Assembly: GCA_021851065.1 (NCBI GenBank)
Contig: JAJZJQ010000001.1
Coordinates: forward strand, 9,640 to 73,639
Direction of reading: 5' to 3'
Origin: Candidatus Micrarchaeota archaeon
GTDB lineage: Archaea; Micrarchaeota; Micrarchaeia; Micrarchaeales; CABMGC01
DNA: 64,000 bases
Below the pieces are notes generated by a model. It worked only from the letters and a program-made list of their open reading frames with translations. It was not told the origin of the DNA and searched no databases. Below are positions 46,055 through 64,000 of the stretch, in pieces. The translations under genes and the position numbers were made by a program. Position 1 is the first letter of the stretch. Every line of letters begins with the position of its first letter.

Positions 46055-46117
46055 TTACATCACAAAATGTATTCTAGCAACCGTAATTCCAACCAAAGTT
46101 TGTCTGCCTTCTAAGAA

Positions 46118-48419: not shown

Positions 48420-50000
48420 ATGTCTGGAGAAATAAAGGAGGAGTGTGCAGTAGCCGCAGTAAGCCTCCCTAGTCCTGTCGACACCTACCCCCATGGAGCA
48501 GCGGCATTTTATCTCTACCACATGCTCCTGCGCATGCAGAATAGAGGCCAGCTTGCAGCAGGCATAACCACCTACGATCCGAACAGACCCCAGCTTCTTG
48601 ACACCAGAAAGAGGCTAGGCACAGTAAATAACATGTTTGCAATGGATTTCAAGCCAAAGGCAGACGCGATAATGCAAAGGTATTCCGGAACAAGGGGCAT
48701 TGGGCACACAAGATACAGCACCACAGGCGGTGATGACGAGGGATCTGCACAGCCTTTCGAACGCCACCACGGAAGAAGATGGAAGTGGTTTGCATTTTCA
48801 TTCAACGGCAACATAGCCAACTTCCTAGACCTCAAGGCAGAACTTGAGAAGGAGAGCTATCATCTTGTCAGGAACCTGGATACCGAGGTCATACTCCATT
48901 TTCTGGAGAAGTCGCAGATAGGTGCAAGCAAAGTTGATATGAAGGACGTGTTTGCTGACCTGACAGAAAAATTCGATGGTGCATACAACATCGCATACAT
49001 AAACGCCGAGGGCACAACCGCGGTGATGCGGGATCCGATGGGCATACGCCCGATGAGCTACGCCATAGGGGACAGCTTTGCCGGAGCTGCTTCTGAGAAT
49101 ATTGCGCTTGAGAACTTCGCAAACCCGGATTCGCAGATCAAACCGCTACGGCCGGGAGAGATGCTTATATCCGAAGGGGATAGTGTGGAGGTGAAGAGGT
49201 TTGCAAAGTCCCCAAGGAATGCGCACTGCATGTTCGAGTATGTATACTTCTCCAATCCAACATCAATCCTCGATGGACGATCAGTATACGAAACGCGGTG
49301 GAATCTTGGCGTGGACCTTGCAAGGCACGAAACCCTTGATGTAAATGACAGGGATTACGTGGTAGTTCCTGTGCCTGATACTGCCAAGCCAGCTGCTGAC
49401 GGATATGCAAAGACGCTAGGCCTGCCATCCATGGAGGGGCTCATGAAAAACAGGGGATATACAGGCAGGACATTCATAGAGAGCGGAGAGAGGATGGACA
49501 AAGTCAAGCAGAAATACAACATAAATAGGCCAGTGCTAAAGGACAAGAAGGTCATACTGATAGATGACTCGATAGTTAGAGGCACAACTTCAAAATTCCT
49601 TGTCAGGTACGTGAGATCTGCAGGCCCTGCCCAAGTGCATATGAGAGTCACCTGCCCTCCGGTAAGGAGTCCGTGCTTCTATGGAATAGACATGTCCACT
49701 GCAGGCGAACTTATAGCAAACAGGCATTCTAACGAAGAGCAGCTTTACAGGACAGGATGGACTGATCTTGACGATGAAGTAGTGCAGAAGATAGCAAAGG
49801 AGATAGGCGTAGACTCGCTAAGCTACATCGGCTTTGACGGGCTAGTAAACTCAATAGGATTCGAGAACGGCAAAAAGGACATGTGCGCAGCATGCCTGAC
49901 AGGAGAGTACCCAACCGCATGCGGGCAGAAGCTCAGGGACAAGGCGCTTGCAATGTATAAGAAGAATGGAGAGGCAAGGAGGACTTACGATTCTGCTTAG
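48420..50000 (+). CDS. purF: amidophosphoribosyltransferase
   Basis: 526 aa; Ntn Cys after a short propeptide (KEECAVAAV), RGQLAAGI, PRPP loop ILIDDSIVRGTT, C-terminal Cys cluster. Confidence 0.9.
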   Translation: MSGEIKEECAVAAVSLPSPVDTYPHGAAAFYLYHMLLRMQNRGQLAAGITTYDPNRPQLLDTRKRLGTVNNMFAMDFKPKADAIMQRYSGTRGIGHTRYSTTGGDDEGSAQPFERHHGRRWKWFAFSFNGNIANFLDLKAELEKESYHLVRNLDTEVILHFLEKSQIGASKVDMKDVFADLTEKFDGAYNIAYINAEGTTAVMRDPMGIRPMSYAIGDSFAGAASENIALENFANPDSQIKPLRPGEMLISEGDSVEVKRFAKSPRNAHCMFEYVYFSNPTSILDGRSVYETRWNLGVDLARHETLDVNDRDYVVVPVPDTAKPAADGYAKTLGLPSMEGLMKNRGYTGRTFIESGERMDKVKQKYNINRPVLKDKKVILIDDSIVRGTTSKFLVRYVRSAGPAQVHMRVTCPPVRSPCFYGIDMSTAGELIANRHSNEEQLYRTGWTDLDDEVVQKIAKEIGVDSLSYIGFDGLVNSIGFENGKKDMCAACLTGEYPTACGQKLRDKALAMYKKNGEARRTYDSA

Positions 50001-50007
50001 TGGTTGT

Positions 50008-51276
50008 ATGAAGGTGCTTGTAGTAGGTTCTGGTGGCAGGGAGCATGCGATATGCTGGAAGTTCTCGCAGAGCAGGAATGTGGAGCGGATCTTCTGCGCC
50101 CCAGGCAATGCTGGAACCGGAACCATAGCGCGGAATATACAAATTGCGGCAGACGACGTAGCCGGGCTTGCCCAGTTCGCAGAGAATGAGGGAATTGACC
50201 TGACATTCGTAGGACCTGAAGCGCCGATGGAAAAGGGAATAACTGACGAGTTCAATAGGCGCGGGCTTGTGATATTTGGTCCCAGTGCAGCAGCTGCAAG
50301 GCTAGAGACCTCGAAAGAATTCGCAAAGGAGGTAATGGCTGGAGCAGGAGTGCCCACTGCAAGATACGAGATAGTACATACTGCAGATGATGCCAAAAGG
50401 GCTGCAGAACATTTCGGGAGAGCCGCAGTGAAGGCAGACGGCCTGGCCGCAGGCAAGGGGGTGATAATATGCACAAGCAGTAGCGAGATACTGGATGCTG
50501 TGCGAACATTGAAGGACCAGTCGCTCTTCGGCAATGCAGGGGATAGGATAGTGGTGGAAGAGCTCCTTGAAGGAGATGAAGCCAGCATACTTGCATTTTG
50601 CGATGGCAAGACAGCAACGATAATGGTGCCAAGCCAAGACCACAAGAGGATATATGATGGAGATGCTGGCAAGAATACTGGCGGCATGGGAGCATACGCA
50701 CCAACGCCTGTTGTGCAGGGACTCGAGAAGGAGATACATGATAAGGTGTTTGTCCCGGTTCTCAGGGAGATGTCAAGGCGCGGCACGCCGTATGTTGGCG
50801 TGCTGTACGCCGGACTTATGGTAAATGGCAGTGAGTTCAGGGTTCTTGAGTTCAATGCACGCTTTGGGGATCCTGAAGCCCAGCCCGTGCTCTCCCTTCT
50901 TGAGACGGATCTATTGGATATTTCGCAGGCGTGCATAGATGGAAGGCTTGGAGATATAGATATAAAGTGGAAGGCAGGAGCGTCATGCTGCGTCATTGCA
51001 GCGTCAAAGGGCTATCCGGACAGGTATGAGAAAGGTAAGATAATAGAAGGCATAGAAGACGCACAGAAGCTGGATAGCGTAGTGGTGTTCCATTCAGGCA
51101 CTAAGACCGAAGGCGGCAATATAGTAACAGACGGGGGACGGGTTCTTGGTGTAACTGCAACAGGAGCCTCCATAAAAGAGGCCATAGCAAGCGCCTATGA
51201 TGGAATAAAGCTGATACGGTTCGACGGCATGCACTATAGGACAGACATAGGCAAGGCAGTGACAGGCAGGAGCTGA
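50008..51276 (+). CDS. purD: phosphoribosylamine-glycine ligase
   Basis: 422 aa from MKVLVVGSGGREHAICWK; ATP-grasp motifs. Confidence 0.9.
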   Translation: MKVLVVGSGGREHAICWKFSQSRNVERIFCAPGNAGTGTIARNIQIAADDVAGLAQFAENEGIDLTFVGPEAPMEKGITDEFNRRGLVIFGPSAAAARLETSKEFAKEVMAGAGVPTARYEIVHTADDAKRAAEHFGRAAVKADGLAAGKGVIICTSSSEILDAVRTLKDQSLFGNAGDRIVVEELLEGDEASILAFCDGKTATIMVPSQDHKRIYDGDAGKNTGGMGAYAPTPVVQGLEKEIHDKVFVPVLREMSRRGTPYVGVLYAGLMVNGSEFRVLEFNARFGDPEAQPVLSLLETDLLDISQACIDGRLGDIDIKWKAGASCCVIAASKGYPDRYEKGKIIEGIEDAQKLDSVVVFHSGTKTEGGNIVTDGGRVLGVTATGASIKEAIASAYDGIKLIRFDGMHYRTDIGKAVTGRS

Positions 51277-51295
51277 TTTTCTGGACAAGACTGCA

Positions 51296-51835
51296 GTGCG
51301 CTCAATTATGCTTGCCAAGAGAAGGGCGATGCCTGCCCATGTAAGAGAGAGGCTCAGCGCGAGTATCTGCTCCAGACTTCTTGGTATGCCACAGGTAGCT
51401 GAAGCTGCGGCAATAGGCATCTACATGCCTTTCGAGAACGAGGTGGACGTAGATGCACTCTTGATGGCCTTTTTTGCAAATGGAAAGAAGGTCTTTGTGC
51501 CAGTCATGCACAGGAATGGCGGCATGAAGTTCGCTGTGCTGAAATCGCGGAAAGATACGGCAGTGGGATATGGAAGCATACGCATACCGAGGAGTTTATC
51601 TTTTGCAGGAAGCATGACAATAGGGGTCTTTGTAGTTCCTGGAATTGCCTTCGACCGAAGGGGCTTTAGAATAGGATTTGGTGGTGGCCACTATGACAGG
51701 TTCTTTTCCAGGGGCAGTGGCGCAGTGAAGATAGGAGTCGCATACGATTTCCAGGTAGTTGGAGAGGTAGACGCCAAGGCGCATGATGTCAGGATGGATT
51801 TTGTAGTGACTGAGAAAAGGATTATAAAAACCTGA
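51296..51835 (+). CDS. 5-formyltetrahydrofolate cyclo-ligase
   Basis: 179 aa; VPGIAFDRRGFRIGFGGGHYDRF motif. Confidence 0.8.
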   Translation: MRSIMLAKRRAMPAHVRERLSASICSRLLGMPQVAEAAAIGIYMPFENEVDVDALLMAFFANGKKVFVPVMHRNGGMKFAVLKSRKDTAVGYGSIRIPRSLSFAGSMTIGVFVVPGIAFDRRGFRIGFGGGHYDRFFSRGSGAVKIGVAYDFQVVGEVDAKAHDVRMDFVVTEKRIIKT

Positions 51836-52441
51836 TTATGCGCCTATGTGCAGCCTGCCATCGCTTGCCATGCTTATGGCCTCAAGGAAGCATTCCTGTT
51901 CCAGCTTCTGGACCTTGCCCTTTAGGGTTTGAACAGTATCAGCAGACAGAACGGGGCACCTCTTTTGAAGGATTATCCTTCCTGCATCCACTTCCTCCGT
52001 GACTTCGTGCAAGGTGCACCCGGTCTCAGTTTCATGGTTTTCTAGGACAAGTTTATGGACATCCAGATTAAATCCGCCTGCGTATTTTGGCAACAGGCTT
52101 GGATGTATATTCCATATTCTGCCCCTGAACTGCCCTACGAGGTATGGCGTTAGTATCTTGGCAAACCCTATGAGAAGGATAAGATCTGCGCCTCCTTTGC
52201 TTTTCAGCTCTTCTGTGAGGAGCCGCTCAGTGTTGGCACGGTCATTAGAGCCGCCGTAGTCCATCACAAAGACAGGTATTCCGTGATCCGAAGCCCTTTT
52301 GAGAATGAGTGCATCCTTTCTGTCGGATGCGACAAGGGTCATATGGGCGTTAAGCTTACCTGCGTCTATCGCATCGATTATGGCCTGCATGTCGGTCCCT
52401 TTGGTGGAACCTAGCACTGCTAGCCTGATTTTTGCGGCCAT
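51836..52441 (-). CDS. purN: phosphoribosylglycinamide formyltransferase (folate-dependent)
   Basis: 201 aa; IWNIHPSLLPKYAG and D-containing loop (EVTEEVDAGRII). Confidence 0.85.
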   Translation of the reverse strand: MAAKIRLAVLGSTKGTDMQAIIDAIDAGKLNAHMTLVASDRKDALILKRASDHGIPVFVMDYGGSNDRANTERLLTEELKSKGGADLILLIGFAKILTPYLVGQFRGRIWNIHPSLLPKYAGGFNLDVHKLVLENHETETGCTLHEVTEEVDAGRIILQKRCPVLSADTVQTLKGKVQKLEQECFLEAISMASDGRLHIGA

Positions 52442-53295
52442 TCTATATCACGACATGCGGCAATAGTATTGCACATCAGACTTGCAATGGTCATGGGCCC
52501 AACTCCCCCGGGCACGGGAGTTATCCACGATGCCCTTTTTGAAACTTCTTTGAAGTCAACATCCCCGGAAAGCTTCCCGTCCTTTAGCCTGCTTATGCCA
52601 ACATCTATCACTATGGCGCCCTTCTTGACCATCGGACCTTTTATAAGGTTAGGTTTGCCTACCGCGCACACGATTATGTCGGCGTCCTTTGTGAAGCGCC
52701 CAAGGTCCGTGGTCTTGCTGTGGCAGATGGTAACTGTGCATCCTTTGTTCAGAAGCATTACTGCGACAGGCTTACCGACTATGTTGCTTCTTCCCACAAC
52801 AACGGCGTTCTTGCCTTCCAGTTTGGCTCCGGTGGATTCTAGGAGGGTGATTATGCCGGTTGGGGTTGCAGGTCTCATCCCGCTCTTTGCCAGCAGGTTC
52901 CTGCCGTGGTTGTATGGATGCAGGCCGTCTACATCCTTTGATATTGCCACTGTCTCAAGCACCTTCTTGTGGTTCAGATGCTCTGGAAGCGGTAGCTGAA
53001 CAAGTATACCGTGAACCGTCTTGTCTTCATTAAGCTCCCTGATCTCCCCAAGTATCCTGCCATATGAGACGCTGCTTGGAAACCTTCTTACTTCAGACTT
53101 CATTCCCAGTTCTATGCAGGTCTTGTGCTTCCTGTTAACGTATATGGTAGATGCTGGATCGTTGCCCACCTGGATTACAACGAGCTTTGGTATGACCCCT
53201 TTCCTCTTCATGGTTGCAACCTCTCTTTTCACACTGCGCAGCATGGAGTCAGCGATCTTCTTGCCATCCAAAATATGTGCTACCATGATAACCAC
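52420..53295 (-). CDS. folD: bifunctional methylene-THF dehydrogenase / methenyl-THF cyclohydrolase
   Basis: 291 aa; ILDGKKIA, GILVQLPLP, VVVGRSNIVGKP, PVPGGVGPMT. Confidence 0.9.
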   Translation of the reverse strand: MVIMVAHILDGKKIADSMLRSVKREVATMKRKGVIPKLVVIQVGNDPASTIYVNRKHKTCIELGMKSEVRRFPSSVSYGRILGEIRELNEDKTVHGILVQLPLPEHLNHKKVLETVAISKDVDGLHPYNHGRNLLAKSGMRPATPTGIITLLESTGAKLEGKNAVVVGRSNIVGKPVAVMLLNKGCTVTICHSKTTDLGRFTKDADIIVCAVGKPNLIKGPMVKKGAIVIDVGISRLKDGKLSGDVDFKEVSKRASWITPVPGGVGPMTIASLMCNTIAACRDIEWPQKSG

Positions 53296-53420: not shown

Positions 53421-56400
53421 ATGCCAAGTCGCATAATAGTCGGATTCAGAGATGGGGAATCTGATCCGCTGGGCAGCAGCCTTGAGAAGACCATCAGAAA
53501 CTTCCTTGGGATAAATGCAGAGTCGGTCAGGACAAGGAGAGTATATACAATATATGCAGACCTTGGCAGGGAAGAGATAGAATCGCTTGAGAAGGATCTC
53601 TTCGTGGATCCAGTGACTGAGTGCTCAGTGAGGGATATCGATGGCAGATTTGACTGGCTCATAGAAGTGGAATATAAGCCTGGAGTCACAAACCCTGTCG
53701 GCAAGACTGCAGCAGAGGCTGTCAGCAGAATGGTAAACAAGGAGATAGACATAGAAGGAGGGGTGTCTACTTCGCTGCAATATCTGATTAGCGGAATAGG
53801 CAGAGGCGAGGCGCAGGCAATTGCGGCAAGGCTGCTCTCAAACCAGGTCATAGAGAATGCAAGAGTATTGGGCAGGGAAGAGATAGGCGCAGATGGCATA
53901 CCAATACTGCAGCAGGACATGGGCATGGAGCATAGGCCGGAAGTGAAGGCAGTGGACCTAGCTGTGAGCGATGAGAAGCTCATGGAGATAAGCAGGAATG
54001 GGGTGCTGGCACTAAGCCTTGCTGAAATGAAGGTGATACAGAAGTACTCGCAGTATGGCAGTGTGATAAAGGAGAGGGAAAGCATAGGCATGGACAGCCA
54101 GTTCCTAGGTAAGCTTACTGATGTGGAGCTCGAAGTAGTTGCACAGACACAATCAGAGCACTGCAAGCACAAGATATTCAACGGGATAGTAAATTATGCA
54201 GAGCAGAATGGTGTTGTTGAAGTCATAGACGGTCTGTTTGGGACGTGCATAAAGGCGCCTGCAAGGGAGTTAATGGGCAGGTATAAATGGATAATATCCG
54301 CTTTCGATGACAATGCAGGGATAGTTGATGTGGGTGGCGGAATAGTCGTAGCGGACAAGATAGAGACGCACAATGCGCCTTCTGCCCTAGACCCATATGG
54401 TGGTGCAATCACAGGCATACTTGGCGTGAACAGGGATATACTTGGGGCAGGAATAGGTGCAAGACCAATGTTCAATGTTTTTGGATACTGCTTTGGAGAC
54501 CCATTCCACAGCAAGGCGCTGATGGGAGGAGTGCTGCATCCCGCAAGGATACGCAATGGGGTTCACAGGGGCGTTATAGACGGGGGGAACCAGAGCGGCA
54601 TTGCCTTGATGGATGGATTTGAGGTGTTCGATGAGCGCTTCGGATTCAGGCCACTTGTGTACTGCGGCACGATAGGAACAATGCCAAAGACGGTAAACGC
54701 AAGACAGTCTGACCTGAAGAAGGCCATGCCAGGTGACCTTGCCGTAATGGTCGGAGGCAGGATAGGCAAGGATGGAATACATGGGGCAACATTCTCATCG
54801 GCAGAGCTCAACAAGGACTCCCCAGTGCAGGCAGTACAGATAGGGGACTCCATAACTCAAAAGAAGATGCTTGATTTCCTGATAGAGGCCAGGGACAGAG
54901 GGCTTTATAGCAGCATAACCGACAATGGAGCTGGAGGGCTGTCGTCTTCTATTGGGGAAATGGCCAAAGACACCAACGGATGCATAATAGATCTCAAGAA
55001 GGCTCCGCTTAAGTACCGTGGGCTTATGCCATGGGAGATAATCGTATCTGAGTCGCAGGAGCGCATGACAGTTGCAGTGGATCCCTCCAAGATAGGTGAG
55101 TTCACAGAACTAGCGGGACTGAGGGGAGTCGAAGCTACTGCCCTTGGAAGGTTCACAGATAGCGGCAGATTCCATGCAATGTACGGGGACATGACGGTGG
55201 CTTACCTGGACATGGATTTCATGCACAAGGGTTTCCCCAGAATGGAGCTTGTGGCCAGATGGAAAGAGGTGGCCAGAGAGGAGCCGCGGTTCCTGCAGCC
55301 AGATGACCTTGGAAGCGTTCTGGAATGCATGCTTGCAAGGCTCAACATATGCTCAAAGGAGTATAAGATGAGGCAATATGATCACGAAGTCAAGGGCCTT
55401 AGCATTGTGAAGCCTTTCGTAGGAAAGCAGGCAGATGTTAGCAGCGATGCTACAGTAGCGCTTCTGGGATACGCAAGAAAAGATGGGCTAGTAGTCTCAC
55501 ACGGTATAAACCCGCACTATTCAGACATAGATACTTATTGGATGGCTGCTTCGGTGATAGACGAAGCCATACGCAGGGCCATTGCAACAGGATGCAAGCT
55601 GCCTGATGAGGACAACATAATGTATGCCCTTGACAATTTCTGCTGGAACCTTTCATCGCTGGATTCTGATGACGGGCACTTCAAGATGGCGCAGCTTGTG
55701 AGGGCAAACAAAGCCCTTGCAGAGTATTGCAGGGCGTTCAAGGTGCCGTGCATCTCGGGCAAGGACAGCATGAAGAATGTATGGAGAGGGGAAGAGACGA
55801 TAGATGGCAAGACCGTTGAAAAGACAATATCCATACCCCCGACATTGCTATTCTCTGTAAGAGCGAGGATCGAAGATGTAAGCAAGGCGGTTACAATGGA
55901 CGTGAAGAATGATGGAGACGCAGTATACGTTCTTGGAGAGACATACGATGAGCTTGGCGCCTCGGAGTACTTCGCATATGTCGGGGAGAAGGCAGCAGAG
56001 AAGATGGTGGGAAATAATGTGCCAAAAGTGGATGCTGTCAAGGCAATTAAGACGTACTCTGCATTGAGCGCTGCGATAGAAAAAGGACTCGTGTCCTCTG
56101 CACATACGCCCACCCTGGGAGGCCTGGGTGTAGCTATGGCGCAATCGGCTTTCGCAGGAGGATACGGAATTGAAGCAGACCTGCGCAAGGTGCCGTATCT
56201 TGGGGAGAGGCGCGATGACTATATTCTGTTCTCGCAGTCGAACAGCAGGTTCATCGTAACAGTACCAAGCACAAAGTGCAGCGAATTCGAGGGCATGATG
56301 GATGGCACGGCATATGCGAGGATAGGGACTGTGACTCGGAGCACGAGGCTCAAGGTTACTGGCCTTGGAGGCACAGTGGTGATAGACTCAGACATACAAG

Positions 56401-56441
56401 CGCTCAAGGAATCGTGGAAGGGAACATTGGAGGGGATGTGA
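53421..56441 (+). CDS. purL: FGAM synthase PurL with two N-terminal PurS-like repeats (PurS-PurS-PurL fusion)
   Basis: 1006 aa; the PurL core starts near QSEHCKHKIF; ~170 extra N-terminal aa form two ~75-aa PurS-like units (IIVGFRDGESDPLGSSLEKTI... and IEVEYKPGVTNPVGKTAAEAV...). Confidence 0.85.
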   Translation: MPSRIIVGFRDGESDPLGSSLEKTIRNFLGINAESVRTRRVYTIYADLGREEIESLEKDLFVDPVTECSVRDIDGRFDWLIEVEYKPGVTNPVGKTAAEAVSRMVNKEIDIEGGVSTSLQYLISGIGRGEAQAIAARLLSNQVIENARVLGREEIGADGIPILQQDMGMEHRPEVKAVDLAVSDEKLMEISRNGVLALSLAEMKVIQKYSQYGSVIKERESIGMDSQFLGKLTDVELEVVAQTQSEHCKHKIFNGIVNYAEQNGVVEVIDGLFGTCIKAPARELMGRYKWIISAFDDNAGIVDVGGGIVVADKIETHNAPSALDPYGGAITGILGVNRDILGAGIGARPMFNVFGYCFGDPFHSKALMGGVLHPARIRNGVHRGVIDGGNQSGIALMDGFEVFDERFGFRPLVYCGTIGTMPKTVNARQSDLKKAMPGDLAVMVGGRIGKDGIHGATFSSAELNKDSPVQAVQIGDSITQKKMLDFLIEARDRGLYSSITDNGAGGLSSSIGEMAKDTNGCIIDLKKAPLKYRGLMPWEIIVSESQERMTVAVDPSKIGEFTELAGLRGVEATALGRFTDSGRFHAMYGDMTVAYLDMDFMHKGFPRMELVARWKEVAREEPRFLQPDDLGSVLECMLARLNICSKEYKMRQYDHEVKGLSIVKPFVGKQADVSSDATVALLGYARKDGLVVSHGINPHYSDIDTYWMAASVIDEAIRRAIATGCKLPDEDNIMYALDNFCWNLSSLDSDDGHFKMAQLVRANKALAEYCRAFKVPCISGKDSMKNVWRGEETIDGKTVEKTISIPPTLLFSVRARIEDVSKAVTMDVKNDGDAVYVLGETYDELGASEYFAYVGEKAAEKMVGNNVPKVDAVKAIKTYSALSAAIEKGLVSSAHTPTLGGLGVAMAQSAFAGGYGIEADLRKVPYLGERRDDYILFSQSNSRFIVTVPSTKCSEFEGMMDGTAYARIGTVTRSTRLKVTGLGGTVVIDSDIQALKESWKGTLEGM

Positions 56442-57263
56442 ATGGCAGATAAGAGGCCTAGAGTTCTTGTGCCCACTGGATATGGGCTTAACTGCGAAGA
56501 AGAGACAGCATATGGATACAGGCTTGCCGGTGCTGATGCAGATATAGTACACATAAATGATGTGATATCCAGCCCCAAGATGCTGGAGGACTACCACATA
56601 CTTGCACTGATAGGCGGCTTTGCTGATGGAGACCATATAGCTTCTGGCAAAGTCCATGCGAACAGGCTCAAGTACAGGCTTGGCGGGGCAATCGAGGAGT
56701 TCATAGAAAACGGAAAGCTGGTGATAGGGGTCTGCAACGGATTCCAGACTATGGTAAAGTATGGTCTCCTGCCAGCTATTGACAATAGGTATAGAACCGA
56801 AACTGTGACCCTTACTTACAATGACTCCGGTAAGTTCGAGGACAGATGGGTGCACCTTTTGGCCAATTCGGATTCTAAGTGCGTGTGGACAAGGAACGTG
56901 GGCGCCATCAGCCTCCCGGTAAGGCACGGAGAGGGCAAGCTTAGGGCTGGGAGCGGGGATGTGATGGAAACGATAGTAGAGGAGAAACTCGATGCGCTGC
57001 ACTACATAAACCCACATACGCAAGAGATTGCAAAGGAATCAGATTACCCATATAACCCAAATGGCTCTGCCATGTCCATCGCAGGCTTATGCGACCCGAC
57101 TGGCAGGGTGTTTGGCATGATGCCCCACTGGGAGGCATATCTGTCGCCGTACAACCATCCGCTCTGGCAGAGGCTTAGGGCAGCCGGAAAGCTCCCTGAG
57201 CAGGGCCTGGGCCTTAAGATAGGTATGAATGGAGTTGAATATGCGCGTGAGAAACTTCTATAG
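56442..57263 (+). CDS. purQ: FGAM synthase glutaminase subunit
   Basis: 273 aa; catalytic Cys in GVCNGFQ and His in MMPHWE; ATG abuts the purL TGA. Confidence 0.9.
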   Translation: MADKRPRVLVPTGYGLNCEEETAYGYRLAGADADIVHINDVISSPKMLEDYHILALIGGFADGDHIASGKVHANRLKYRLGGAIEEFIENGKLVIGVCNGFQTMVKYGLLPAIDNRYRTETVTLTYNDSGKFEDRWVHLLANSDSKCVWTRNVGAISLPVRHGEGKLRAGSGDVMETIVEEKLDALHYINPHTQEIAKESDYPYNPNGSAMSIAGLCDPTGRVFGMMPHWEAYLSPYNHPLWQRLRAAGKLPEQGLGLKIGMNGVEYAREKLL

Positions 57264-58889
57264 TTGATCTATGTGGCAAGGGAGCTAACCTATCTTGATG
57301 TCGTACCTGAAGCAGCGAAGGAACAGCTCTCTAGGACATGGGGGGATGCAAAATCCAGGACATTCGCAGTTGCTAAAAAGCATGGCATAAAAATAGAGCA
57401 GGAAAAGTCATTCAATAAGGCAGTGGTTTTCACGCTTGGCGCAGGTTACTATCACCTCGTGTCTGGAGCAGCATCCATGGAAGACGCCGCGCAGACGGAG
57501 GATGTCGTCAGCAGGGTAAACGGGCTCATAGAGCATATGGCAGGCAGTGAGAGGAGGCGTGGACTTGTGCCTTTGTTCGGATCCAATATCTGTGACTGGG
57601 ATTCGGCATATGCGCAGCGGGTTGGAGCAAGCGCGAAAATGAGGGATGAGATAATCAGGTCATGCACTGCAAATGATATCGTGCTGGTAGGTGGAGAAAC
57701 GGCGAACATCGGTGAACAGTTGCGCAAAAAGGGAATAGGATGGACATTCACCCTGCTAAGCAGATATGATGGCGAGGTAGGCCGAGCTGTTGCGTATGGC
57801 GGAATGGACCTTGAACTTGAGAGTACATTTGGCTTCATAGAGGAGAAGGAGTTCTTCGAGGTGGTGAACGCAGGCGGCATGCCCCTGCTGCATGTTAGGA
57901 AACCGTCCAGGTTTATGATAACTGCAGACGGATCCGGATCAAAATCAATAGTGTGCGACCTCATCGGCAATAGAACGGATATAGAGGATACTCTTGCAAG
58001 CGCAGGGGATGATCCCACAAGGGATGGTGCCTTTCCTGTGATAGCGAGCATATGCGTCCATGCCCACGGCCCAGAGGGCAAGATACAGATGGTAGAGCAT
58101 ATGAACAAGGCAGGCATGAAGTACCGAATACCGCTTGTGGGATCGCTTTTCCATGAAGCGAAAACGGTTTATACCTACACAATGAACGGCACGGTACTTA
58201 GCAGGGTGAAGGCGGACTACAGGCAGGAAGAGCTTTGCGCAGGGCTGCGCCTTGTGCTTCTCTACGAGGAGCAGAGATCCAACGGCATAACGCTTCAAAG
58301 GAGGGTGTTAGAGAACGCATTCGGACAAGAATGGTACAGCGTCAAGGCATCTGACGCATTGGACAGGATAAAAAGCGAACTGGGATATGGAGAGAGTTTG
58401 CCTAAGACAGACAAGACACTTGGCGAACTTGTAGCCAGGCCCCCGACCCCGTATTTCAGGATAGACTCGCTGATGCCAGATAGCCTGCTTGCTTCGATAA
58501 GACTCAGAATAAATGTCTCCAGCGGAGGCATTGTAGGCAAGACCAGAAGAGTGCTTGAGCCGCTGGGTCTTGGCGCAGAATACGACAACATCTTTGATGC
58601 GCCTATGCTTATATTGCTCCTTCAGATGTCTAGCAGGCTAGGCAACTCGAAAGGAGTTGTTACTGATAGAGTAAGCTACCATACATGGGGATGTGGAACA
58701 GGTGCAGTGATAGCCACCACTGAGCCTGAAAGAATTGCGGATTACTACAGGAAAAACGGGGTGGATGCAAAGGTCGGGGGCAGGATAACAGATGATGATG
58801 GCATCAGGTTATGGTCAAGATGCTTCGACTCCATGCACAGCAAGCCGCATGTTCTGGATTACAGGTACTCCGAAAGCCCGATAGGATGA
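57264..58889 (+). CDS. divergent AIR synthetase (PurM-like) with an apparently duplicated N-domain
   Basis: 541 aa (PurM is usually ~340); TTG start abutting the purQ stop; aa ~215-541 align by eye to PurM (ADGSGSKS, SNGITLQRRVL, SSGGIVGKTRRVL, WGCGTGAVIAT); aa ~5-200 look like a second PurM N-domain bearing VGGETANIG. Confidence 0.65.
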   Translation: MIYVARELTYLDVVPEAAKEQLSRTWGDAKSRTFAVAKKHGIKIEQEKSFNKAVVFTLGAGYYHLVSGAASMEDAAQTEDVVSRVNGLIEHMAGSERRRGLVPLFGSNICDWDSAYAQRVGASAKMRDEIIRSCTANDIVLVGGETANIGEQLRKKGIGWTFTLLSRYDGEVGRAVAYGGMDLELESTFGFIEEKEFFEVVNAGGMPLLHVRKPSRFMITADGSGSKSIVCDLIGNRTDIEDTLASAGDDPTRDGAFPVIASICVHAHGPEGKIQMVEHMNKAGMKYRIPLVGSLFHEAKTVYTYTMNGTVLSRVKADYRQEELCAGLRLVLLYEEQRSNGITLQRRVLENAFGQEWYSVKASDALDRIKSELGYGESLPKTDKTLGELVARPPTPYFRIDSLMPDSLLASIRLRINVSSGGIVGKTRRVLEPLGLGAEYDNIFDAPMLILLLQMSSRLGNSKGVVTDRVSYHTWGCGTGAVIATTEPERIADYYRKNGVDAKVGGRITDDDGIRLWSRCFDSMHSKPHVLDYRYSESPIG

Positions 58890-58895
58890 TCAGTC

Positions 58896-60281
58896 CTAAA
58901 GCTCATCCATGCGCCTTGCCCACCTGTCAGCTACATGCTCGGCTTTCTTCGATGCTATGCCAACGTACCTTGACGGGTCCCTCACAACGGCCATCTGCCT
59001 TTCTGTGAATTTCTTCAGGTAAGGCTGCAGGCTCCTGTCATTAAGCACTATCTCTGTAAGAGGCCTGCCTGTTTTATAGGACTCGTCTGCAAGCCTGCCG
59101 ACATATTCATGAGAATTTGGATGGCCGTATGCAGACAACAGCAGGTGCAGCGGCTCGGCAAGAGCCTTGTCAGACGACATATTGAAGTTCCTTAGCATGT
59201 TCTGGCGGTGAGCCTGAAGGCTGGCGGATATCCTTATGGCCCTTCTCACAGAGTAGTCGAACTGGTCCAGCACCTGAGGTATGTAGCGCTGCGATGCAGA
59301 GTTGGTAAGGTCGCGCTGGTGATCTGATATCTGGTCCAGGCTCACCATTACAAGGTATGGCATCGTCGCCTTCCAAAGACTCTTGATGTTCTCAAGGCCC
59401 ACGGGATTTGCCTTGTGGGGCATTGTCGACGACCTTGATATGTCCTTGCCCCTGGGTTGCCCTACCTCAGCTATCTCTGGCCTCTGCAGGTTCCTTAGAT
59501 CATCAGCCCAGTTGGCCAGTATGGTGAAGCTGCTTATTGTGTGGTGCATCAGGTCCGCCATTGGCTCCTGCTGCACTATCTGGGTGGATATCTCCGTAGG
59601 CTTCAGGCCCAGTTCACTTAGCACCTCGCCCTCGAACTTTTCAGGATCGTCGACGAACAGGGACGATGCGTTGTATGCGCCAACTGCGCCTGAGAACTTG
59701 CCGCACAAACTGGCTGAGGCCTCCTTTATCTTTAGTATCTGGCTTCCAAGCCTGCTTACATACCATGCAACCGCAAACCCGAAAGTTATTGGTTCTGCAT
59801 GCTGCAGGTGAGTCCTGCCTATCTGAAGCGTGTCTTTCTCCCTTCTTGCAATATCTATCCAGGCCCGCTCAAGAGCCACCATGTCGGGCAGTATAACGCT
59901 GTCAAATGCGTCCCTGTATCGCAGCACGTTGGCGGAGTCAACTATGTCATATGAAGTTGCAGTCCTGTGCACCCCGGCAGCGGCCTCCTTGCTCACTCCT
60001 TTTCTGATAACGTTTACCTGCGCTATTATGTCGTGGCCTACCTTGGCCTCCTCCTCGTATACGTCCCTTGCCCTGACGTGCTCGGATGCCTTCTTTATCT
60101 GGGCTGCGGATTCGCTGCTTATTATGCCCCTGCTGGCCAGCACAGATGCAAGCGCGGCCTCTACCTTGGATTTGTATTTGACATATGCCTCCTCAGACAG
60201 GTATGGGGAGAGCTCCTTGACATGATACCTGTAGTCGGATGGAGAGACGAGATCGTATATCGAGATATTCTCCTCTGTCAA
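58896..60281 (-). CDS. purB: adenylosuccinate lyase
   Basis: 461 aa; fumarate-lyase signature SSTMPHKANP. Confidence 0.9.
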   Translation of the reverse strand: MTEENISIYDLVSPSDYRYHVKELSPYLSEEAYVKYKSKVEAALASVLASRGIISSESAAQIKKASEHVRARDVYEEEAKVGHDIIAQVNVIRKGVSKEAAAGVHRTATSYDIVDSANVLRYRDAFDSVILPDMVALERAWIDIARREKDTLQIGRTHLQHAEPITFGFAVAWYVSRLGSQILKIKEASASLCGKFSGAVGAYNASSLFVDDPEKFEGEVLSELGLKPTEISTQIVQQEPMADLMHHTISSFTILANWADDLRNLQRPEIAEVGQPRGKDISRSSTMPHKANPVGLENIKSLWKATMPYLVMVSLDQISDHQRDLTNSASQRYIPQVLDQFDYSVRRAIRISASLQAHRQNMLRNFNMSSDKALAEPLHLLLSAYGHPNSHEYVGRLADESYKTGRPLTEIVLNDRSLQPYLKKFTERQMAVVRDPSRYVGIASKKAEHVADRWARRMDEL

Positions 60282-60285
60282 TGGA

Positions 60286-61194
60286 TCACCTGAATTGCTG
60301 CCCGGTAATGGCCTCGAATAGAGCTACATACATATCGCTGACCTGCTTTACCATATCTTGCGGGAGCGCAGGTATTGGAGGCTCCTCGCCTTTTTCCTGC
60401 CTTGCCCTCATGAGCTGCGCGTGGTATCCCGAATTTCTGTAGAATTGCCTTACGAATTCCTTGCTCCTCTCAACATACCTGCCCTGCTCGAACTCCTTTG
60501 CGTCCCAGAACCTGTCCTCGTCTGCGGTGCCAAACGTGTCTATGACCATAAGCTTCCTGTCCTTATCGAATGCGAACTCCTTCTTGCCGTCCACATGCAT
60601 AAGGCCGCGTTTCGCCACTCTTGAACTTATGTGGCCGTCGATCTTCAGGCACAGCTCCTTCATGTCGGCGTACTCAGTCTCAGTCAGCCCGGAGATTTTA
60701 AGCGCCTCGTCTTTTGACAGATTCCTGTCCACCTTCTCCAGCTTTGTAGTGACCTCGAAGAAAGGCTCCGCAAGCGGCTCTGCCTGTTTCACCTGGTGCC
60801 CCGTAGCGAAACCAAGTTGCTCGGGCTTTATCTGTGCGCTCTTCACCCTGTCCCATAGCGAGCCGTACACGTAGTAGCGCGTTATGACCTCGAGAGGTAT
60901 GAGGTAGTTTCTTGTGTCCGGACCCAGCGTGGAATAGTCGCGTATCACATCCACCTTCTTCACCCGCATCCGGTTGGGCGGGTCGAGCCTTAGAAAGTGC
61001 ACGGGTATGCCATTCTCCTTTAGCACGTTGAACCAGTAAGCGCTGGTGCGCGCAAGAGTCTCCCCTTTGTGCGGTATGCTGCTTGGTATTATCTTATCGA
61101 ATACAGATACCCTGTCCGAGAATACGAATTCGAGCTCGTCGGTGCTTATGTCATACACGTCCTTGACCTTGCCGGATCTTATCAGGTTTGCCAT
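60286..61194 (-). CDS. purC: SAICAR synthetase
   Basis: 302 aa; GKVKDVY N-terminus, long-form PurC. Confidence 0.85.
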   Translation of the reverse strand: MANLIRSGKVKDVYDISTDELEFVFSDRVSVFDKIIPSSIPHKGETLARTSAYWFNVLKENGIPVHFLRLDPPNRMRVKKVDVIRDYSTLGPDTRNYLIPLEVITRYYVYGSLWDRVKSAQIKPEQLGFATGHQVKQAEPLAEPFFEVTTKLEKVDRNLSKDEALKISGLTETEYADMKELCLKIDGHISSRVAKRGLMHVDGKKEFAFDKDRKLMVIDTFGTADEDRFWDAKEFEQGRYVERSKEFVRQFYRNSGYHAQLMRARQEKGEEPPIPALPQDMVKQVSDMYVALFEAITGQQFR

Positions 61195-61198
61195 ATTA

Positions 61199-61771
61199 TC
61201 ACTTTTGCGCCTTGGATTTGCGTGAGAGGTATTCCTTGTGCCCCAGCCTCTCTAGCGTTTGGGCTTTTGCCTCCACAGAAGATGCCAGCTCCTTTTGGTG
61301 CTTCTCTAGCTTAATTTGGACCGCCCTGTCGCTGGAGCCTATGATTCTTGCGGCGAGTGTTGCGGCATTTCTTGCTCCGTCTATAGCCACAGTGGCAACA
61401 GGTATGCCGGCAGGCATCTGGACTATGGACAACAGGGAATCGAGGCCATCAAGAGTCTTGAGCTGACGCGGCACGCCTATAACAGGAAGAGCGGTCAGCG
61501 ATGCAACCATCCCAGGAAGATGAGCGGAGCCGCCTGCACAGGCTATAATGACTTTCAACCCCCTTCCTGCTGCGGCCCTTGCGTACTGGTACATCCGCTC
61601 AGGGGTCCTGTGCGCAGATACAACGGTAAGCTCGTAGGGGATGCCAAGCTCCTCGAGCTCATTTGCTGCATCCTGCATGAGAGCGAGGTCTGAATCAGAA
61701 CCCATGATTATGCCAACGATAGCTTTGTCCATACGATCACTATTATTGAGTGGCTCTATATTGATATGCAT
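61199..61771 (-). CDS. purE: N5-CAIR mutase (class I PurE)
   Basis: [28 protein letters not shown]; likely start at the internal Met (61732); ~40-aa charged C-terminal tail. Confidence 0.9.
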
Positions 61772-62883
61772 TGCCTTGCCATCATGGCCTTTTTAAGCGC
61801 TTCGCTGCGGGTTCTTCCTATGGCTGTAACGTGGCCCATCTTGCGCTCTGGCCTTGTAGCTGCCTTGCCATATATGTGCACAGTTACCCCCGGAATGCGC
61901 AGGGCCTTGTCCATGCCCCTGACTTCTGCCGTGCCAGTTCTTTCGCCAAGGATATTGACCATGACTGCATTTCGGGCTATCATTTCAGTGCTGCCAAGAG
62001 GCAGGCCGGTGACTGCCCTTATGTGCTGCTCGAACTGTGACGTAGCGCATGCTTCTATGGTGTAATGGCCTGAGTTGTGTACCCTTGGAGCTATCTCGTT
62101 TATAAGTATCCTCCCGTCCCTTGTCAAGAACATCTCTATTCCGAAAACGCCGGCGCCTTTTAGGTGGCGCATGGCATTTATCGCAACCCTCTGCGCCCTC
62201 GACCTGGAGGCCATGCTTATGCGCGCCGGAGCTATGGTTGTGTGAAGGATGTTGTTCTCGTGGATGTTCTCGACTACAGGATATGCCGCTATGTCGCCAT
62301 CCATACCCCTGGCCACCATCACAGACAGTTCTTTTGCAAATGGAATGAACTTTTCTGCATACAGCCCATGTCCATTAAGTTTTTCCATTCCTGACTTTAT
62401 CCGTTTTTCGGATCTGATAAGCGCATTGCCGCGGCCGTCGTAACCGCCGTATCTTGCCTTGAGCAGCATTGGATATCCAAGCTTTCGCCCTGCAGATACT
62501 GCATCTTCGCCAGAGCCCACTTCGAGGAACTCGCCCACAGGCAGTCCGCTTCCCTTAAGGAAGCGTTTTTGCACAAGCTTGTCTTTTATTATGCCAAGCG
62601 TACTTGCCGAAGGGTTTACTGGCACGCCCCTGCCAGCCAGGCGCTCTAGGAGTTCTGCGTCGGCCAGCTCCCATTCTATGGTTATGTAGTCTGATCTTCT
62701 TGAGAGTTCCCGCATTGCCTTGCCATTGCCCAGTTGCGCTACAATCTGGCAGTCTGCCACCTGGCCGCCTGGCGAGTTCTGCGTCGGATCAAGCACAGTT
62801 ACTACAAACCCCAGCTTCTTTGCATCGTATGCAAGCATGCGGGCCAACTGCCCACCGCCTACTATCCCTATCCTGTTCTTCAT
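61756..62883 (-). CDS. purK: N5-CAIR synthetase
   Basis: 375 aa; [17 protein letters not shown]-grasp. Confidence 0.9.
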
Positions 62884-62907: not shown

Positions 62908-64000
62908 CTATGATGGCGTTATAGTTATGTTGTCGATGCCGTATGGGATAGACGTAGTGCCGCCCTGTTGGCTGTAGAATACTATTTCATTGAGTCCCTG
63001 GGACAGGGTCATGTTTACCGCATAGCGCGATGGGACTGCAGATAGCTTAAGCGAAGATGTGGGCGACTGCACATTGTTTAGGTATAGATCCAGGGTAGGG
63101 CTGCCGGTGTAGCTCATCGCCTCAAAGGCCATGGCCACATTCTGGTCCTTTGGCGAGAACACAACAAGCCCAAGAGGACCTTGGCCCCACCACATGTTTC
63201 CCAGAGTCGCATTGCACTGCCCTGGCGCGCACAGCGAGTATCCTGGCGTCCAGTTCCCGACAGTGTAAGAGGCTATGGATTTACCGGCATTCTTGGATAC
63301 TGCCGCCGTAGTGGAGAACATGAACGTAGAGTTTGACTGGTATACGGGCTGGCCGTATGCGCTGCTCAAAAAGCCGTATAGCTGCTCCTGTTCCGTTAGG
63401 TTGTACGCATCCCTTTGCACTGCTATGAACCCTATGTTGTCCTCCGCCATGAAGAGTGTTGTGATGTTAGTGAAATTCTGCTTTATAGGAGAAGGATATA
63501 CTAGCCCGGCACCCTGCTCAAGGTACCACGCAGCAGTTGCTATCGGCACGGAGCTGACAGACATTACCTGGGTAGCGTTCTCCCTGCTGGTATATCCGCC
63601 TACGAGCGGCTTTTTCATTGCAGTAACGTAGTATGTGGCTGTGCCTGTGTATAGGCTTGGAAGAGCAGAGGTATTTGTGAGCGCGGGGAGTATAAGGACT
63701 GAGAAATTGCCTGAAAGCTTGCCTATCTCGCTGTATGCGCTTGGTATGGCCGTTGGAATCGATGAGCTGCCTATATAGGATGGTGTGAGCGGCATGCCAT
63801 TGTATTCTATAAGTATCAATAGGGACACCACCGCAAGATACTTGTAGGTGGTGTTTCTGTCCTTGCCCTCGGTGAGCTTGGCAAAGCCAAAGGCCGCCAT
63901 GATGGCCAGGGCTATTGTGAGCGCGAAGTCGAATCTTCCAGGTTCTCTTATTATATTGAGTATGGGTATGTCTTTATACAGCATGTAGATGGTAGGTATG
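62908..64000 (-). CDS. C-terminal part of a large membrane protein with an extracytoplasmic domain (possibly a GT-C-like glycosyltransferase); 5' end outside the window
   Basis: The reading frame stays open to the window edge upstream of Met 63984; two TM segments, then a ~300-aa Ser/Thr/Tyr/Asn-rich domain with many N-x-S/T sequons. Confidence 0.5.
   Translation of the reverse strand, partial: IPTIYMLYKDIPILNIIREPGRFDFALTIALAIMAAFGFAKLTEGKDRNTTYKYLAVVSLLILIEYNGMPLTPSYIGSSSIPTAIPSAYSEIGKLSGNFSVLILPALTNTSALPSLYTGTATYYVTAMKKPLVGGYTSRENATQVMSVSSVPIATAAWYLEQGAGLVYPSPIKQNFTNITTLFMAEDNIGFIAVQRDAYNLTEQEQLYGFLSSAYGQPVYQSNSTFMFSTTAAVSKNAGKSIASYTVGNWTPGYSLCAPGQCNATLGNMWWGQGPLGLVVFSPKDQNVAMAFEAMSYTGSPTLDLYLNNVQSPTSSLKLSAVPSRYAVNMTLSQGLNEIVFYSQQGGTTSIPYGIDNITITPS

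What the first reader, a model, noticed from the sequence alone, without database searches (positions are those of the whole stretch)
57264..58889. 541-aa PurM-like protein with what looks like a tandemly duplicated N-domain carrying complementary motif losses
SEEN: this is the only PurM candidate in the cluster, and it is ~200 aa longer than normal PurM. It starts at a TTG abutting the purQ stop.

My by-eye alignment to E. coli PurM gives three segments:
- Residues ~8-200 follow the PurM N-terminus and N-domain: LTYLDVVPEAAKEQL ~ LSYKDAGVDIDAGNAL; YYHLVSGAAS ~ PVLVSGTDGV; RRGLVPLFGSN ~ QGAEPLFFLDY; IVLVGGETANIG ~ SLVGGETAEMPG. This segment lacks the DGVGTK motif.
- Residues ~215-320 form a second N-domain-like segment that has ADGSGSKS, but VGSLFHEAK in place of GGETAEMPG.
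- Residues ~325-520 match the PurM C-domain: SNGITLQRRVL ~ SNGYSLVRKIL; SSGGIVGKTRRVL ~ TGGGFWENIPRVL; WGCGTGAVIAT ~ FNCGVGMIIAL.

ESTABLISHED: PurM-superfamily enzymes dimerise through their N-domains, and PurL is an internally duplicated pseudo-dimer of the same fold.

INFERENCE: this may be an A1-A2-B pseudo-dimeric AIR synthetase in which each N-domain copy kept a different half of the active-site motifs. If so, it would be a new variant of the fold, or possibly an enzyme with altered function.
Basis: partly seen in the sequence, partly recalled or inferred. Interest (0 to 1): 0.6.

Follow-up and report, generated by a model that had tools for sequence, protein, structure and literature searches.

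The report
Single-chain PurM with duplicated N-domain
This archaeal gene most likely encodes the purine-pathway enzyme AIR synthetase in an unusual single-chain form: its dimer-forming N-terminal domain is present twice, each copy keeps a different half of the catalytic motifs, and standard annotation models miss it.

Summary
ORF 57264-58889 encodes a 541-aa protein, conserved at full length (44-61% identity) in more than 40 Aenigmarchaeota-type assemblies.

Residues ~211-520 are a complete PurM (N plus C domain). Residues ~17-157 are a second, very divergent PurM N-domain with its N-terminal leader. The evidence for the second domain:
- A profile of canonical short PurMs hits twice in 57/57 long-form proteins.
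- The N-terminal 205 aa, modelled alone, matches only PurM-superfamily structures.
- A colinear sister family in Woesearchaeota, Pacearchaeota and Nanoarchaeota has Pfam AIRS above threshold on its first domain.

The motifs are complementary and invariant. A1 keeps N108..D111 and GGETAN, and has lost DGxGTK and the DX4GAXP Asp. A2 keeps DGxGxK and DX4GAXP, and has lost the other two.

The gene follows purL-purQ in a purine cluster that lacks only purM, and this linkage recurs in distant relatives.

Best reading: a single-chain pseudo-heterodimeric AIR synthetase with one composite active site, resembling PurL but with only one C-domain.

Verdict: a new variant of a known kind, of moderate interest.

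The parts
57264..58889 (+). Long-form purM ORF: 541 aa from TTG 57264. The public annotation uses GTG 57273 (538 aa). Stop codon at 58887-58889.
57264..57401 (+). N-terminal leader, residues 1-46 (helices 16-33 and 35-39). It corresponds to the N-terminal helix region of canonical PurM. E16, K19, S23, W26, K30 and T33 are invariant.
57402..57773 (+). A1, the first divergent PurM N-domain (residues 47-170), with beta-alpha-beta-alpha-beta-beta topology. S49-F50-N51 sit at the G1-loop position. DGxGTK and the DX4GAXP Asp are lost (position 95 is variable).
57585..57602 (+). A1 motif N108-I-C-D111-W-D113. This is the N..D motif of the RSNG-type PurM clade, in the region of E. coli D107. D111 is invariant; N108 is conserved in 98%.
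57690..57707 (+). A1 motif G143-G-E145-T-A-N148 (GGETA). All six residues are invariant in 42 homologues.
57774..57905 (+). Linker between A1 and A2 (residues 171-214). It is the least conserved segment and contains a predicted beta-hairpin at 198-211.
57906..58223 (+). A2, the second PurM N-domain (residues 215-320). It has no leader of its own. V-G293-S-L-F-H-E-A-K stands in place of GGETA, and S262..V265 in place of N..D.
57927..57944 (+). A2 motif D222-G-S-G-S-K227 (the DGxGTK or G2 loop; E. coli D65). D222, G223, G225 and K227 are invariant.
58011..58037 (+). A2 motif D250-PTRD-G255-A-F-P258, the DX4GAXP signature of the PurM superfamily (E. coli D94). D250 and G255 are invariant.
   Evidence: PMC13013826
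58224..58886 (+). PurM C-domain (residues 321-541).
58272..58286 (+). Q337-R338-S-N340-G341. Arg replaces E. coli His190, as it does in the nearest short-form PurM relatives.
   Evidence: PMC3261824
58512..58529 (+). N417-V-S-S-G-G422, equivalent to E. coli H247-LTGGG. The H247N change is already known in Thermoplasma and Caldivirga PurM.
   Evidence: PMC3261824
53421..57263 (+). purS-purL fusion (53421-56441) and purQ (56442-57263), immediately upstream on the same strand. The purQ stop abuts the start of the target ORF.
48420..53295 (.). Upstream purine and folate genes: purF, purD and 5-FTHF cyclo-ligase on the + strand; purN and folD on the - strand.
58896..62883 (-). Convergent purB, purC, purE and purK genes.

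Best explanation
**What it is.** The gene most likely encodes this organism's AIR synthetase (PurM, purine step 5, FGAM + ATP -> AIR), built as one chain with the layout leader-A1-linker-A2-B. Canonical PurM is a homodimer of A-B subunits. The two A (N-terminal) domains form the dimer interface, and each active site uses residues from both A domains.

**How it probably arose.** An ancient partial duplication placed a second copy of the leader plus A domain in front of a complete PurM. The two A copies then diverged asymmetrically.

**What each part keeps.**
- A2, with the single C-domain, keeps the DGxGxK loop (D222-K227), the DX4GAXP aspartate (D250), RSNG (R338-N340) and N417.
- A1 keeps only the elements a partner subunit would supply: the GGETA loop (G144-E145), N108..D111, and the N-terminal leader with the SFN loop.

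**Inferred mechanism.** A1 packs against A2 as an intramolecular pseudo-dimer and completes one composite ATP/FGAM site. The symmetry-related second site has no C-domain and has decayed. This follows the same logic as the PurL synthetase domain, but with three subdomains instead of four.

**Shown versus inferred.**
- Shown: the two-domain homology, the motif pattern and its conservation, and the gene context.
- Inferred: the A1-A2 packing, which residue lies in which site, the monomeric state, and the catalytic activity.
For: **Segment 211-520 is a PurM**
- The family profile matches solved PurMs at E 6e-11.
- The full-length AF2 model is confident (pLDDT 89.4, pTM 0.90). Its 31 best PDB matches are all PurM.

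**Segment 17-157 is a second PurM N-domain**
- The beta-alpha-beta-alpha-beta-beta pattern occurs twice in the model.
- The segment modelled alone returns only the PurM superfamily, with PurM first.
- A short-PurM HMM gives two hits in the window protein, 23.1 and 136 bits.
- The same two-hit result holds in 57/57 long forms with a clean HMM and in all related loci.

**Sister long family**
- It has more than 110 clusters from Woesearchaeota, Pacearchaeota and Nanoarchaeota.
- It is colinear with this family: hhalign 99.9%, 404 columns.
- Pfam AIRS scores above threshold on its first domain, up to 53 bits.

**A1 is under strong selection**
- 35% of A1 positions are at least 90% identical, against 34% for the C-domain and 28% for A2. 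GGETAN is invariant.

**The complementary motifs are shared by both families**.

**Gene context**
- The window cluster holds purF, D, N, L(S), Q, K, E, C and B, and no other purM.
- purL-purQ-long-purM order, or adjacency, recurs in L007, L008, L015 and L017. purD-long-purM-guaA occurs in L014.

**Published structures of the superfamily**
- In ThiL, the nucleotide pocket lies between the two subunits and includes the N-terminal helix. The second substrate binds within one subunit, between its two domains (PMC6416309).
- In PurM, GVGTK lines the FGAM site and the N-terminal G1 loop lies near ATP (PMC2978367).
Against: - Curated models do not call it PurM: TIGR00878 gives 22.6 bits against 236, and Pfam AIRS 16.9 against 24.
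- E. coli His190 is Arg and His247 is Asn here. His190 was 100% conserved in the archaea surveyed in PMC3261824.
- Within the family, A1 and A2 show no detectable similarity to each other (hhalign). A profile of the N-terminal segment alone (A2) finds nothing in the PDB, and none of its member sequences hits a Pfam AIRS model.
- One published residue-to-subunit assignment (PMC8449271) places the DGVGTK Asp on the same monomer as GGE. That does not fit the pattern seen here. My alternative assignment rests on strand topology and on my recollection of PurL structures.
- Absence of a canonical purM elsewhere in the genome is not established.
Confidence: 0.75

Rival explanations
1. It is a PurM-superfamily paralogue with a changed function, for example another ATP-dependent cyclisation or phosphorylation. 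The true AIR synthetase would then be a canonical purM elsewhere in the genome.
For: - The protein scores far below the curated PurM cutoffs.
- The His190->Arg and His247->Asn substitutions are present.
- Several homologues are not next to pur genes: L009-L013 and L016.
- Only 64 kb of the genome could be examined.
Against: - The gene occupies the purM slot of a cluster that otherwise lacks only that step.
- Linkage to purL-purQ is conserved across distant DPANN lineages.
- RSNG is the norm in the closest short relatives. These are full-length homologues of solved PurMs and are annotated as PurM.
- H247N already occurs in accepted archaeal PurMs (PMC3261824).
- The closest folds are PurM, not ThiL, SelD or HypE.
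Confidence: 0.12
2. A1 is a non-catalytic pseudo-domain with a structural or regulatory role. The enzyme would still dimerise through A2 like ordinary PurM, or form a larger assembly with four N-domains.
For: - A1 has lost the DGxGTK and DX4GAXP aspartates.
- The oligomeric state is unknown.
- The domain packing could not be inspected.
Against: - A2 lacks GGE and N..D, so an A2-A2 dimer would have no copy of these conserved elements at its sites.
- The same elements are invariant in A1, in two families that diverged long ago.
- A1 is as conserved as the catalytic C-domain.
- pTM 0.90 indicates one compact, confidently placed arrangement of the three domains.
Confidence: 0.1
3. It is an artefact: two ORFs fused by a frameshift or misassembly, or an unrelated N-terminal domain that merely looks PurM-like by eye.
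For: - Pfam sees only one weak AIRS hit in this protein.
- The within-family profile of the N-terminus finds nothing on its own.
Against: - The identical ORF is found on 8 contigs from several samples.
- More than 150 full-length homologue clusters exist in two families.
- There is independent fold and HMM evidence for the N-terminal domain.
Confidence: 0.02

Closest known systems
Canonical PurM / AIR synthetase (E. coli 1CLI, Pyrococcus 9JZY/9K00, T. thermophilus 5AVM; TIGR00878; Pfam PF00586 + PF02769)
   Same: - Residues ~211-520 have the same N plus C domain fold.
- They carry DGxGxK, DX4GAXP, xSNG and xxSGG at colinear positions.
- PurMs are the best structural matches.
- The gene has the same place in the purine gene cluster.
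   Different: - The protein is ~200 aa longer, with an extra leader plus N-domain in front.
- GGE and the D107-region motif are missing from the domain attached to the C-domain and are found only in the extra domain.
- His190 is Arg and His247 is Asn.
- It scores far below the curated family cutoffs.
- It is presumably a single-chain pseudo-dimer with one site, rather than a homodimer with two.
PurL / FGAM synthetase synthase domain (A1-B1-A2-B2 pseudo-dimer of the PurM fold; T. maritima 2HS4, human FGAMS)
   Same: - It is an internally duplicated member of the PurM superfamily.
- Symmetry is broken, and only one of the two potential sites is catalytic.
- The active site is formed by three subdomains (PMC13013826).
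   Different: - The protein here has no second C-domain (A1-A2-B, not A1-B1-A2-B2).
- By sequence and fold it is nearer to PurM than to PurL.
- There is no glutaminase partner logic.
- The duplication is independent of the one in PurL.
Short 'RSNG-type' PurM-like proteins (~340-400 aa, metagenomic; annotated phosphoribosylformylglycinamidine cyclo-ligase)
   Same: - These are the nearest single-N-domain relatives.
- They share Arg at the His190 position and the N..D motif after GAxP.
- They are full-length homologues of solved PurMs.
   Different: They have one N-domain that carries all four motifs in the canonical order.
Long-form PurM of Woesearchaeota/Pacearchaeota/Nanoarchaeota (470-530 aa; 'AIR synthase related protein')
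   Same: - It has the same leader-A1-A2-B layout and the same complementary motif split (NGENA in A1; NSDGVGTK and DDxxKxGA in A2).
- It is colinear with this family at 99.9% hhalign probability.
- It is also linked to purL-purQ.
   Different: - It aligns with the window's family at only ~23% profile identity.
- It has a shorter linker.
- It retains His at the H247 position.
- Its A1 is less diverged, so Pfam AIRS reaches threshold there.

Membership tests
PurM superfamily | DX4GAXP ATP-binding signature in an AIRS-type N-domain, followed by an AIRS_C-type C-domain | tested here: met
   - D250-PTRD-G255-A-F-P258 is invariant or nearly so.
- The fold matches PurM, ThiL, HypE, SelD and PurL.
- The signature is defined in PMC13013826.
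PurM / AIR synthetase (EC 6.3.3.1) | Score above the curated model cutoffs (TIGR00878 236.35 bits; PF00586 24 bits; PF02769 23.1 bits) | tested here: not met
   - TIGR00878 scores 22.6 bits.
- PF00586 scores 16.9 bits.
- PF02769 gives no hit.
PurM / AIR synthetase (EC 6.3.3.1) | PurM, rather than another superfamily member, is the closest relative by profile and by fold | tested here: met
   - The profile against the PDB returns PurMs at 6e-11 to 1e-9.
- Foldseek ranks 1-31 are all PurM.
- The N-terminal domain alone also matches PurM best.
PurM / AIR synthetase (EC 6.3.3.1) | DGVGTK (E. coli D65) and GGETA (E141) present in the same N-domain | tested here: not met
   - DGxGxK is found only in A2 (222-227).
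- GGETA is found only in A1 (143-147).
- A2 has VGSLFHEAK at the GGE position.
PurM / AIR synthetase (EC 6.3.3.1) | Proposed catalytic residues Asp65, Asp94, His190 and His247 (E. coli numbering; PMC3261824) | tested here: inconclusive
   - D222 and D250 are present and invariant.
- His190 is replaced by R338, as in the nearest short PurM-like clade.
- His247 is replaced by N417, a substitution known in Thermoplasma and Caldivirga PurM (PMC3261824).
PurM / AIR synthetase (EC 6.3.3.1) | Homodimer formed by the four-stranded sheets of two N-domains | not testable with these tools
   - Two N-domains in one chain and pTM 0.90 suggest an intramolecular equivalent.
PurM / AIR synthetase (EC 6.3.3.1) | Sole candidate for step 5 in a genome that encodes the rest of the pathway | tested here: inconclusive
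   - It is the only PurM-like ORF in the 64-kb window and within +-10 kb of 12 related loci.
- The cluster has purF, D, N, L, Q, K, E, C and B.
- Whole genomes could not be searched.
PurM / AIR synthetase (EC 6.3.3.1) | Catalyses FGAM + ATP -> AIR + ADP + Pi | not testable with these tools
   This needs a complementation test or an enzyme assay.
PurL-type internally duplicated pseudo-dimer (A1-B1-A2-B2) | Two N-type (A) subdomains in one chain | tested here: met
PurL-type internally duplicated pseudo-dimer (A1-B1-A2-B2) | Two C-type (B) subdomains, with the second half holding an auxiliary nucleotide site | tested here: not met
   - There is only one C-domain, at 321-541.
- The segment between A1 and A2 is a 44-residue linker.

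The most novel reading that the evidence does not exclude
The long-form protein may be a monomeric, three-subdomain AIR synthetase. It would be the minimal catalytic unit of the PurM fold, in which a half-gene duplication replaced homodimerisation and the two N-domains subfunctionalised into "donor" (A1) and "acceptor" (A2-B) halves of a single active site. It would be the standard PurM of a large part of the DPANN archaea: Aenigmarchaeota, Woesearchaeota, Pacearchaeota and Nanoarchaeota. It would also be a route to broken symmetry independent of the one taken by PurL.
Probability: 0.5. Interest if true: 0.65.

Novelty: new variant of a known kind. Interest (0 to 1): 0.55.

Why it matters
**Enzyme evolution.** This would be a clean natural example of an obligate homodimeric enzyme converted into a single-chain pseudo-heterodimer, with the catalytic motifs split between the two copies. 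It parallels PurL but keeps only the three subdomains that build one site. That makes the question "which subunit supplies which residue in PurM-fold enzymes" directly testable by mutating one chain.

**Annotation.** Pfam and NCBIfam thresholds miss the Aenigmarchaeota form. NCBI records call it "hypothetical" or "AIR synthase related". Automated metabolic reconstructions will therefore tend to score step 5 of purine synthesis as absent in these DPANN archaea, whose supposed nucleotide auxotrophy is often taken as evidence of host dependence.

Tried and rejected
**Searches that found nothing**
- hhalign of residues 1-205 against 206-330, 206-541 and 331-541 within the family gave no signal. 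The duplication is too old to see directly. Evidence had to come from outside profiles.
- A profile of the N-terminal 205 aa found nothing relevant in the PDB. The individual N-terminal sequences found nothing relevant in Pfam.
- Literature searches for a described duplicated-N-domain or single-chain PurM, and for PurM gaps in Aenigmarchaeota or DPANN, found nothing relevant. The library is incomplete, so this is weak evidence of novelty.
- The listing of cluster members on the nearest short relatives gave no useful taxonomy.

- As a result, neither the A1-A2 barrel nor distances between residues could be checked.
- Foldseek of the full model against PurL gave an uninformative alignment: rmsd 14 A, TMq 0.49.

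**Alternatives rejected**
- Circular permutation of one N-domain. Rejected because both segments contain a complete beta-alpha-beta-alpha-beta-beta unit, and both align to the same profile positions.
- Frameshift fusion. Rejected.
Full report
**Observation**

ORF 57264-58889 (+) is real: 541 codons, with a TTG start directly after the purQ TAG stop. The public annotation of the identical gene starts three codons later, at GTG 57273, giving 538 aa.

The same protein occurs on eight contigs from several samples, including MAGs GCA_027333685.1 and GCA_027333715.1. It has more than 40 full-length homologues of 545-570 aa at 44-61% identity. Where these carry a name, they are mostly from Candidatus Aenigmatarchaeota. 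A frameshift or assembly fusion is therefore excluded.

- Pfam gives a single sub-threshold AIRS hit at 216-312: 16.9 bits against a cutoff of 24.
- NCBIfam purM gives 22.6 bits against a cutoff of 236.

**The C-terminal two-thirds are a PurM**

- A profile of the 42-member family (A1) matches solved AIR synthetases over residues ~219-361 at E 6e-11 to 1e-9, and weakly over the C-domain.
- The AlphaFold model built from that alignment is confident: pLDDT 89.4, pTM 0.90.
- Its 31 best Foldseek matches in the PDB are all PurM. PurL, ThiL, SelD and HypE follow.

**The N-terminal third is a second PurM N-domain**

Four independent lines of evidence support this.

1. Secondary structure. The predicted pattern of strand, helix, strand, helix, strand, strand occurs twice, at 61-168 and at 215-315.
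2. Fold. Residues 1-205 were modelled alone from their own alignment (pLDDT 80). All 50 best PDB matches are PurM-superfamily structures, with PurM first at E 5e-6.
3. Profile hits.
   - An HMM built from 79 short (330-400 aa) PurM-like proteins hits only this ORF in the six-frame translation of the window. It hits as two domains: residues 17-157 to profile 13-160 (23.1 bits) and residues 211-520 to profile 58-360 (136 bits).
   - The same two-hit result holds for every related locus.
   - With a stricter HMM of 27 proteins that have the canonical motif order, all 57 long-form proteins tested give a separate N-terminal hit of 13-55 bits.
4. Sister family.
   - A family of 470-530 aa proteins, with more than 110 clusters, occurs in Woesearchaeota, Pacearchaeota and Nanoarchaeota.
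   - It is colinear with this one over 404 columns (hhalign 99.9%).
   - Its first domain aligns with residues 51-167 of the window protein (95%, E 3.6e-8).
   - In that family, Pfam AIRS scores above threshold on the first domain (up to 53 bits) and sometimes hits twice.

Directly comparing the two halves within the family gives no signal. A profile of the N-terminal segment finds nothing in the PDB, and its member sequences find no AIRS match in Pfam. The duplication is therefore old and the first copy very divergent. A circular permutation is excluded, because both segments are complete units that align to the same profile positions.

**Motif anatomy**

This section rests on the alignment, the conservation figures and the E. 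coli numbering.

| Part | Keeps | Has lost |
|---|---|---|
| A1 (residues 47-170), with the leader | S49-F50-N51 at the G1-loop position; G100..P103; N108..D111 (the N..D motif that the RSNG-type PurM clade has in the E. coli D107 region); invariant G143-G-E-T-A-N148 | DGxGTK (VSGAAS in its place); the DX4GAXP aspartate (position 95 is variable) |
| A2 (residues 215-320) | Invariant D222-G-x-G-x-K227; D250-x4-G255-A-x-P258 | N..D (S262..V265 in its place); GGE (G293-S-L-F-H in its place) |
| C-domain (residues 321-541) | Invariant Q-R338-S-N340-G; N417-V-S-S-G-G | - |

- Arg at the His190 position is the rule in the nearest short relatives. Those relatives are full-length homologues of solved PurMs.
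- Asn at the His247 position is already known in accepted archaeal PurMs (PMC3261824).
- The Woesearchaeota-type family shows the same split: NGENA and N..D in A1; NSDGVGTK and DDxxKxGA in A2.
- A1 is not decaying. 35% of its positions are at least 90% identical across the family, against 34% for the C-domain and 28% for A2.

**Context**

The window carries the following purine genes:
- purF, purD, 5-FTHF cyclo-ligase, purN and folD;
- a purS-purL fusion, then purQ, then this gene;
- convergent purB, purC, purE and purK.

Step 5 is the only one of steps 1-9 without another candidate in the cluster.

The linkage recurs in relatives:
- purSL-purQ-long-purM-purE-purK-purB-purC in L007;
- long-purM near purSL-purQ in L008;
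- purD-long-purM-guaA in L014;
- purL-purQ-long-purM-purC-purO in a Woesearchaeota MAG (L015);
- long-purM-purL-purQ in L017.

Other copies are unlinked to pur genes (L009-L013, L016). No short purM lies within 10 kb of any copy examined.

**Mechanism**

Established background from the literature:
- In PurM-fold enzymes the nucleotide pocket lies at the interface of the two subunits and includes the N-terminal helix. The second substrate binds within one subunit, between its N and C domains (ThiL, PMC6416309).
- In PurM, the GVGTK loop lines the FGAM site and the N-terminal G1 loop lies near ATP (PMC2978367).
- In PurL, an internal duplicate of the fold, the active site sits in a cleft of three subdomains. 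The symmetry-related site holds only a structural ADP (PMC13013826).

Inference for this protein:
- A2 and the C-domain form the "acceptor" half: the FGAM site plus the DX4GAXP aspartate.
- A1 and its leader form the "donor" half: GGE, N..D and the leader loop and helix.
- Together they build one composite active site.
- The second potential site has no C-domain and has lost all four of its motifs.

My argument that DGxGTK and DX4GAXP of one N-domain face the same site rests on strand topology. Two helices lie between strands 1 and 2, and one helix lies between strands 2 and 3. On that topology, GGE and D107 of the same domain face the other site. The argument also rests on my recollection of PurL structures. 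One published list (PMC8449271) instead assigns the DGVGTK aspartate to the same monomer as GGE. This step is therefore unconfirmed.

- pTM 0.90 for the full-length model;
- the A1 GGE strand (145-148) forms, and has higher confidence, only in the full-length model.

**Comparison and novelty**

The protein works like, and is most closely related to, PurM. It fails the curated family thresholds and the "all motifs in one N-domain" criterion, so it is best described as a new architectural variant of PurM rather than a plain member. It resembles PurL in being an internally duplicated, symmetry-broken PurM fold, but it has a single C-domain.

Some IMG records already call members "AIR synthetase". 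NCBI records say "hypothetical" or "AIR synthase related". The likely function is therefore partly recognised. I found no description of the architecture, although the searchable library is incomplete.

**Verdict**

I put 0.75 on [quoted passage not shown]. I put about 0.6 on the specific one-composite-site mechanism. Interest is moderate (0.55). It is a tidy case of enzyme symmetry breaking that appears to be the normal PurM across several DPANN phyla, and it bears on claims that these archaea cannot make purines.

Noticed in passing
window 62908-64000 (- strand; gene continues beyond the window end); full gene in L001:15636-17888: A 750-aa gene lies directly downstream of purK, at the edge of the purine cluster. 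It has no Pfam domain at E<=1, either for the full length or for the 357-aa part inside the window. No homologue was seen in the corresponding position of L007.
   Followed up: partly
window 48420-50000 (purF) vs L001:1148-2728: purF is an intact 526-aa ORF in the window. In the otherwise near-identical MAG contig DAHWYY010000008.1 it carries a premature stop (G90*). That contig shows 2 differences in 16.7 kb, and purF is annotated there as two genes. The stop may be a population variant or a consensus error.
   Followed up: yes
window 53421-56441: PurL is a 1006-aa protein with a PurS-like segment (residues ~81-149) and the FGAR-AT linker fused in front of the synthetase domain. purQ remains a separate gene. 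The Woesearchaeota loci have similar purL genes of 1027-1075 aa.
   Followed up: no
window 51296-53295: Folate one-carbon genes sit inside the purine cluster next to purN: 5-formyl-THF cyclo-ligase (+) and folD (-). No purH, purP or purO was seen among the ORFs scanned between 38 and 64 kb. A Woesearchaeota relative (L015) has purO (IMP cyclohydrolase) after purC.
   Followed up: no
window 44114-46753: A proteasome subunit gene and an FttA/aCPSF1-type beta-CASP ribonuclease gene confirm that the window is archaeal. GMP synthase (guaA) lies at 38380-39900.
   Followed up: no
L007 and L014 (genome contigs records JAJZNA010000006.1, CAZFUA010000069.1): Two genomes that carry the Aenigmarchaeota-type long PurM (57% and 50% identity) are labelled Candidatus Micrarchaeota in their record titles. 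This could be a taxonomic mislabel or a wider distribution of the family.
   Followed up: no
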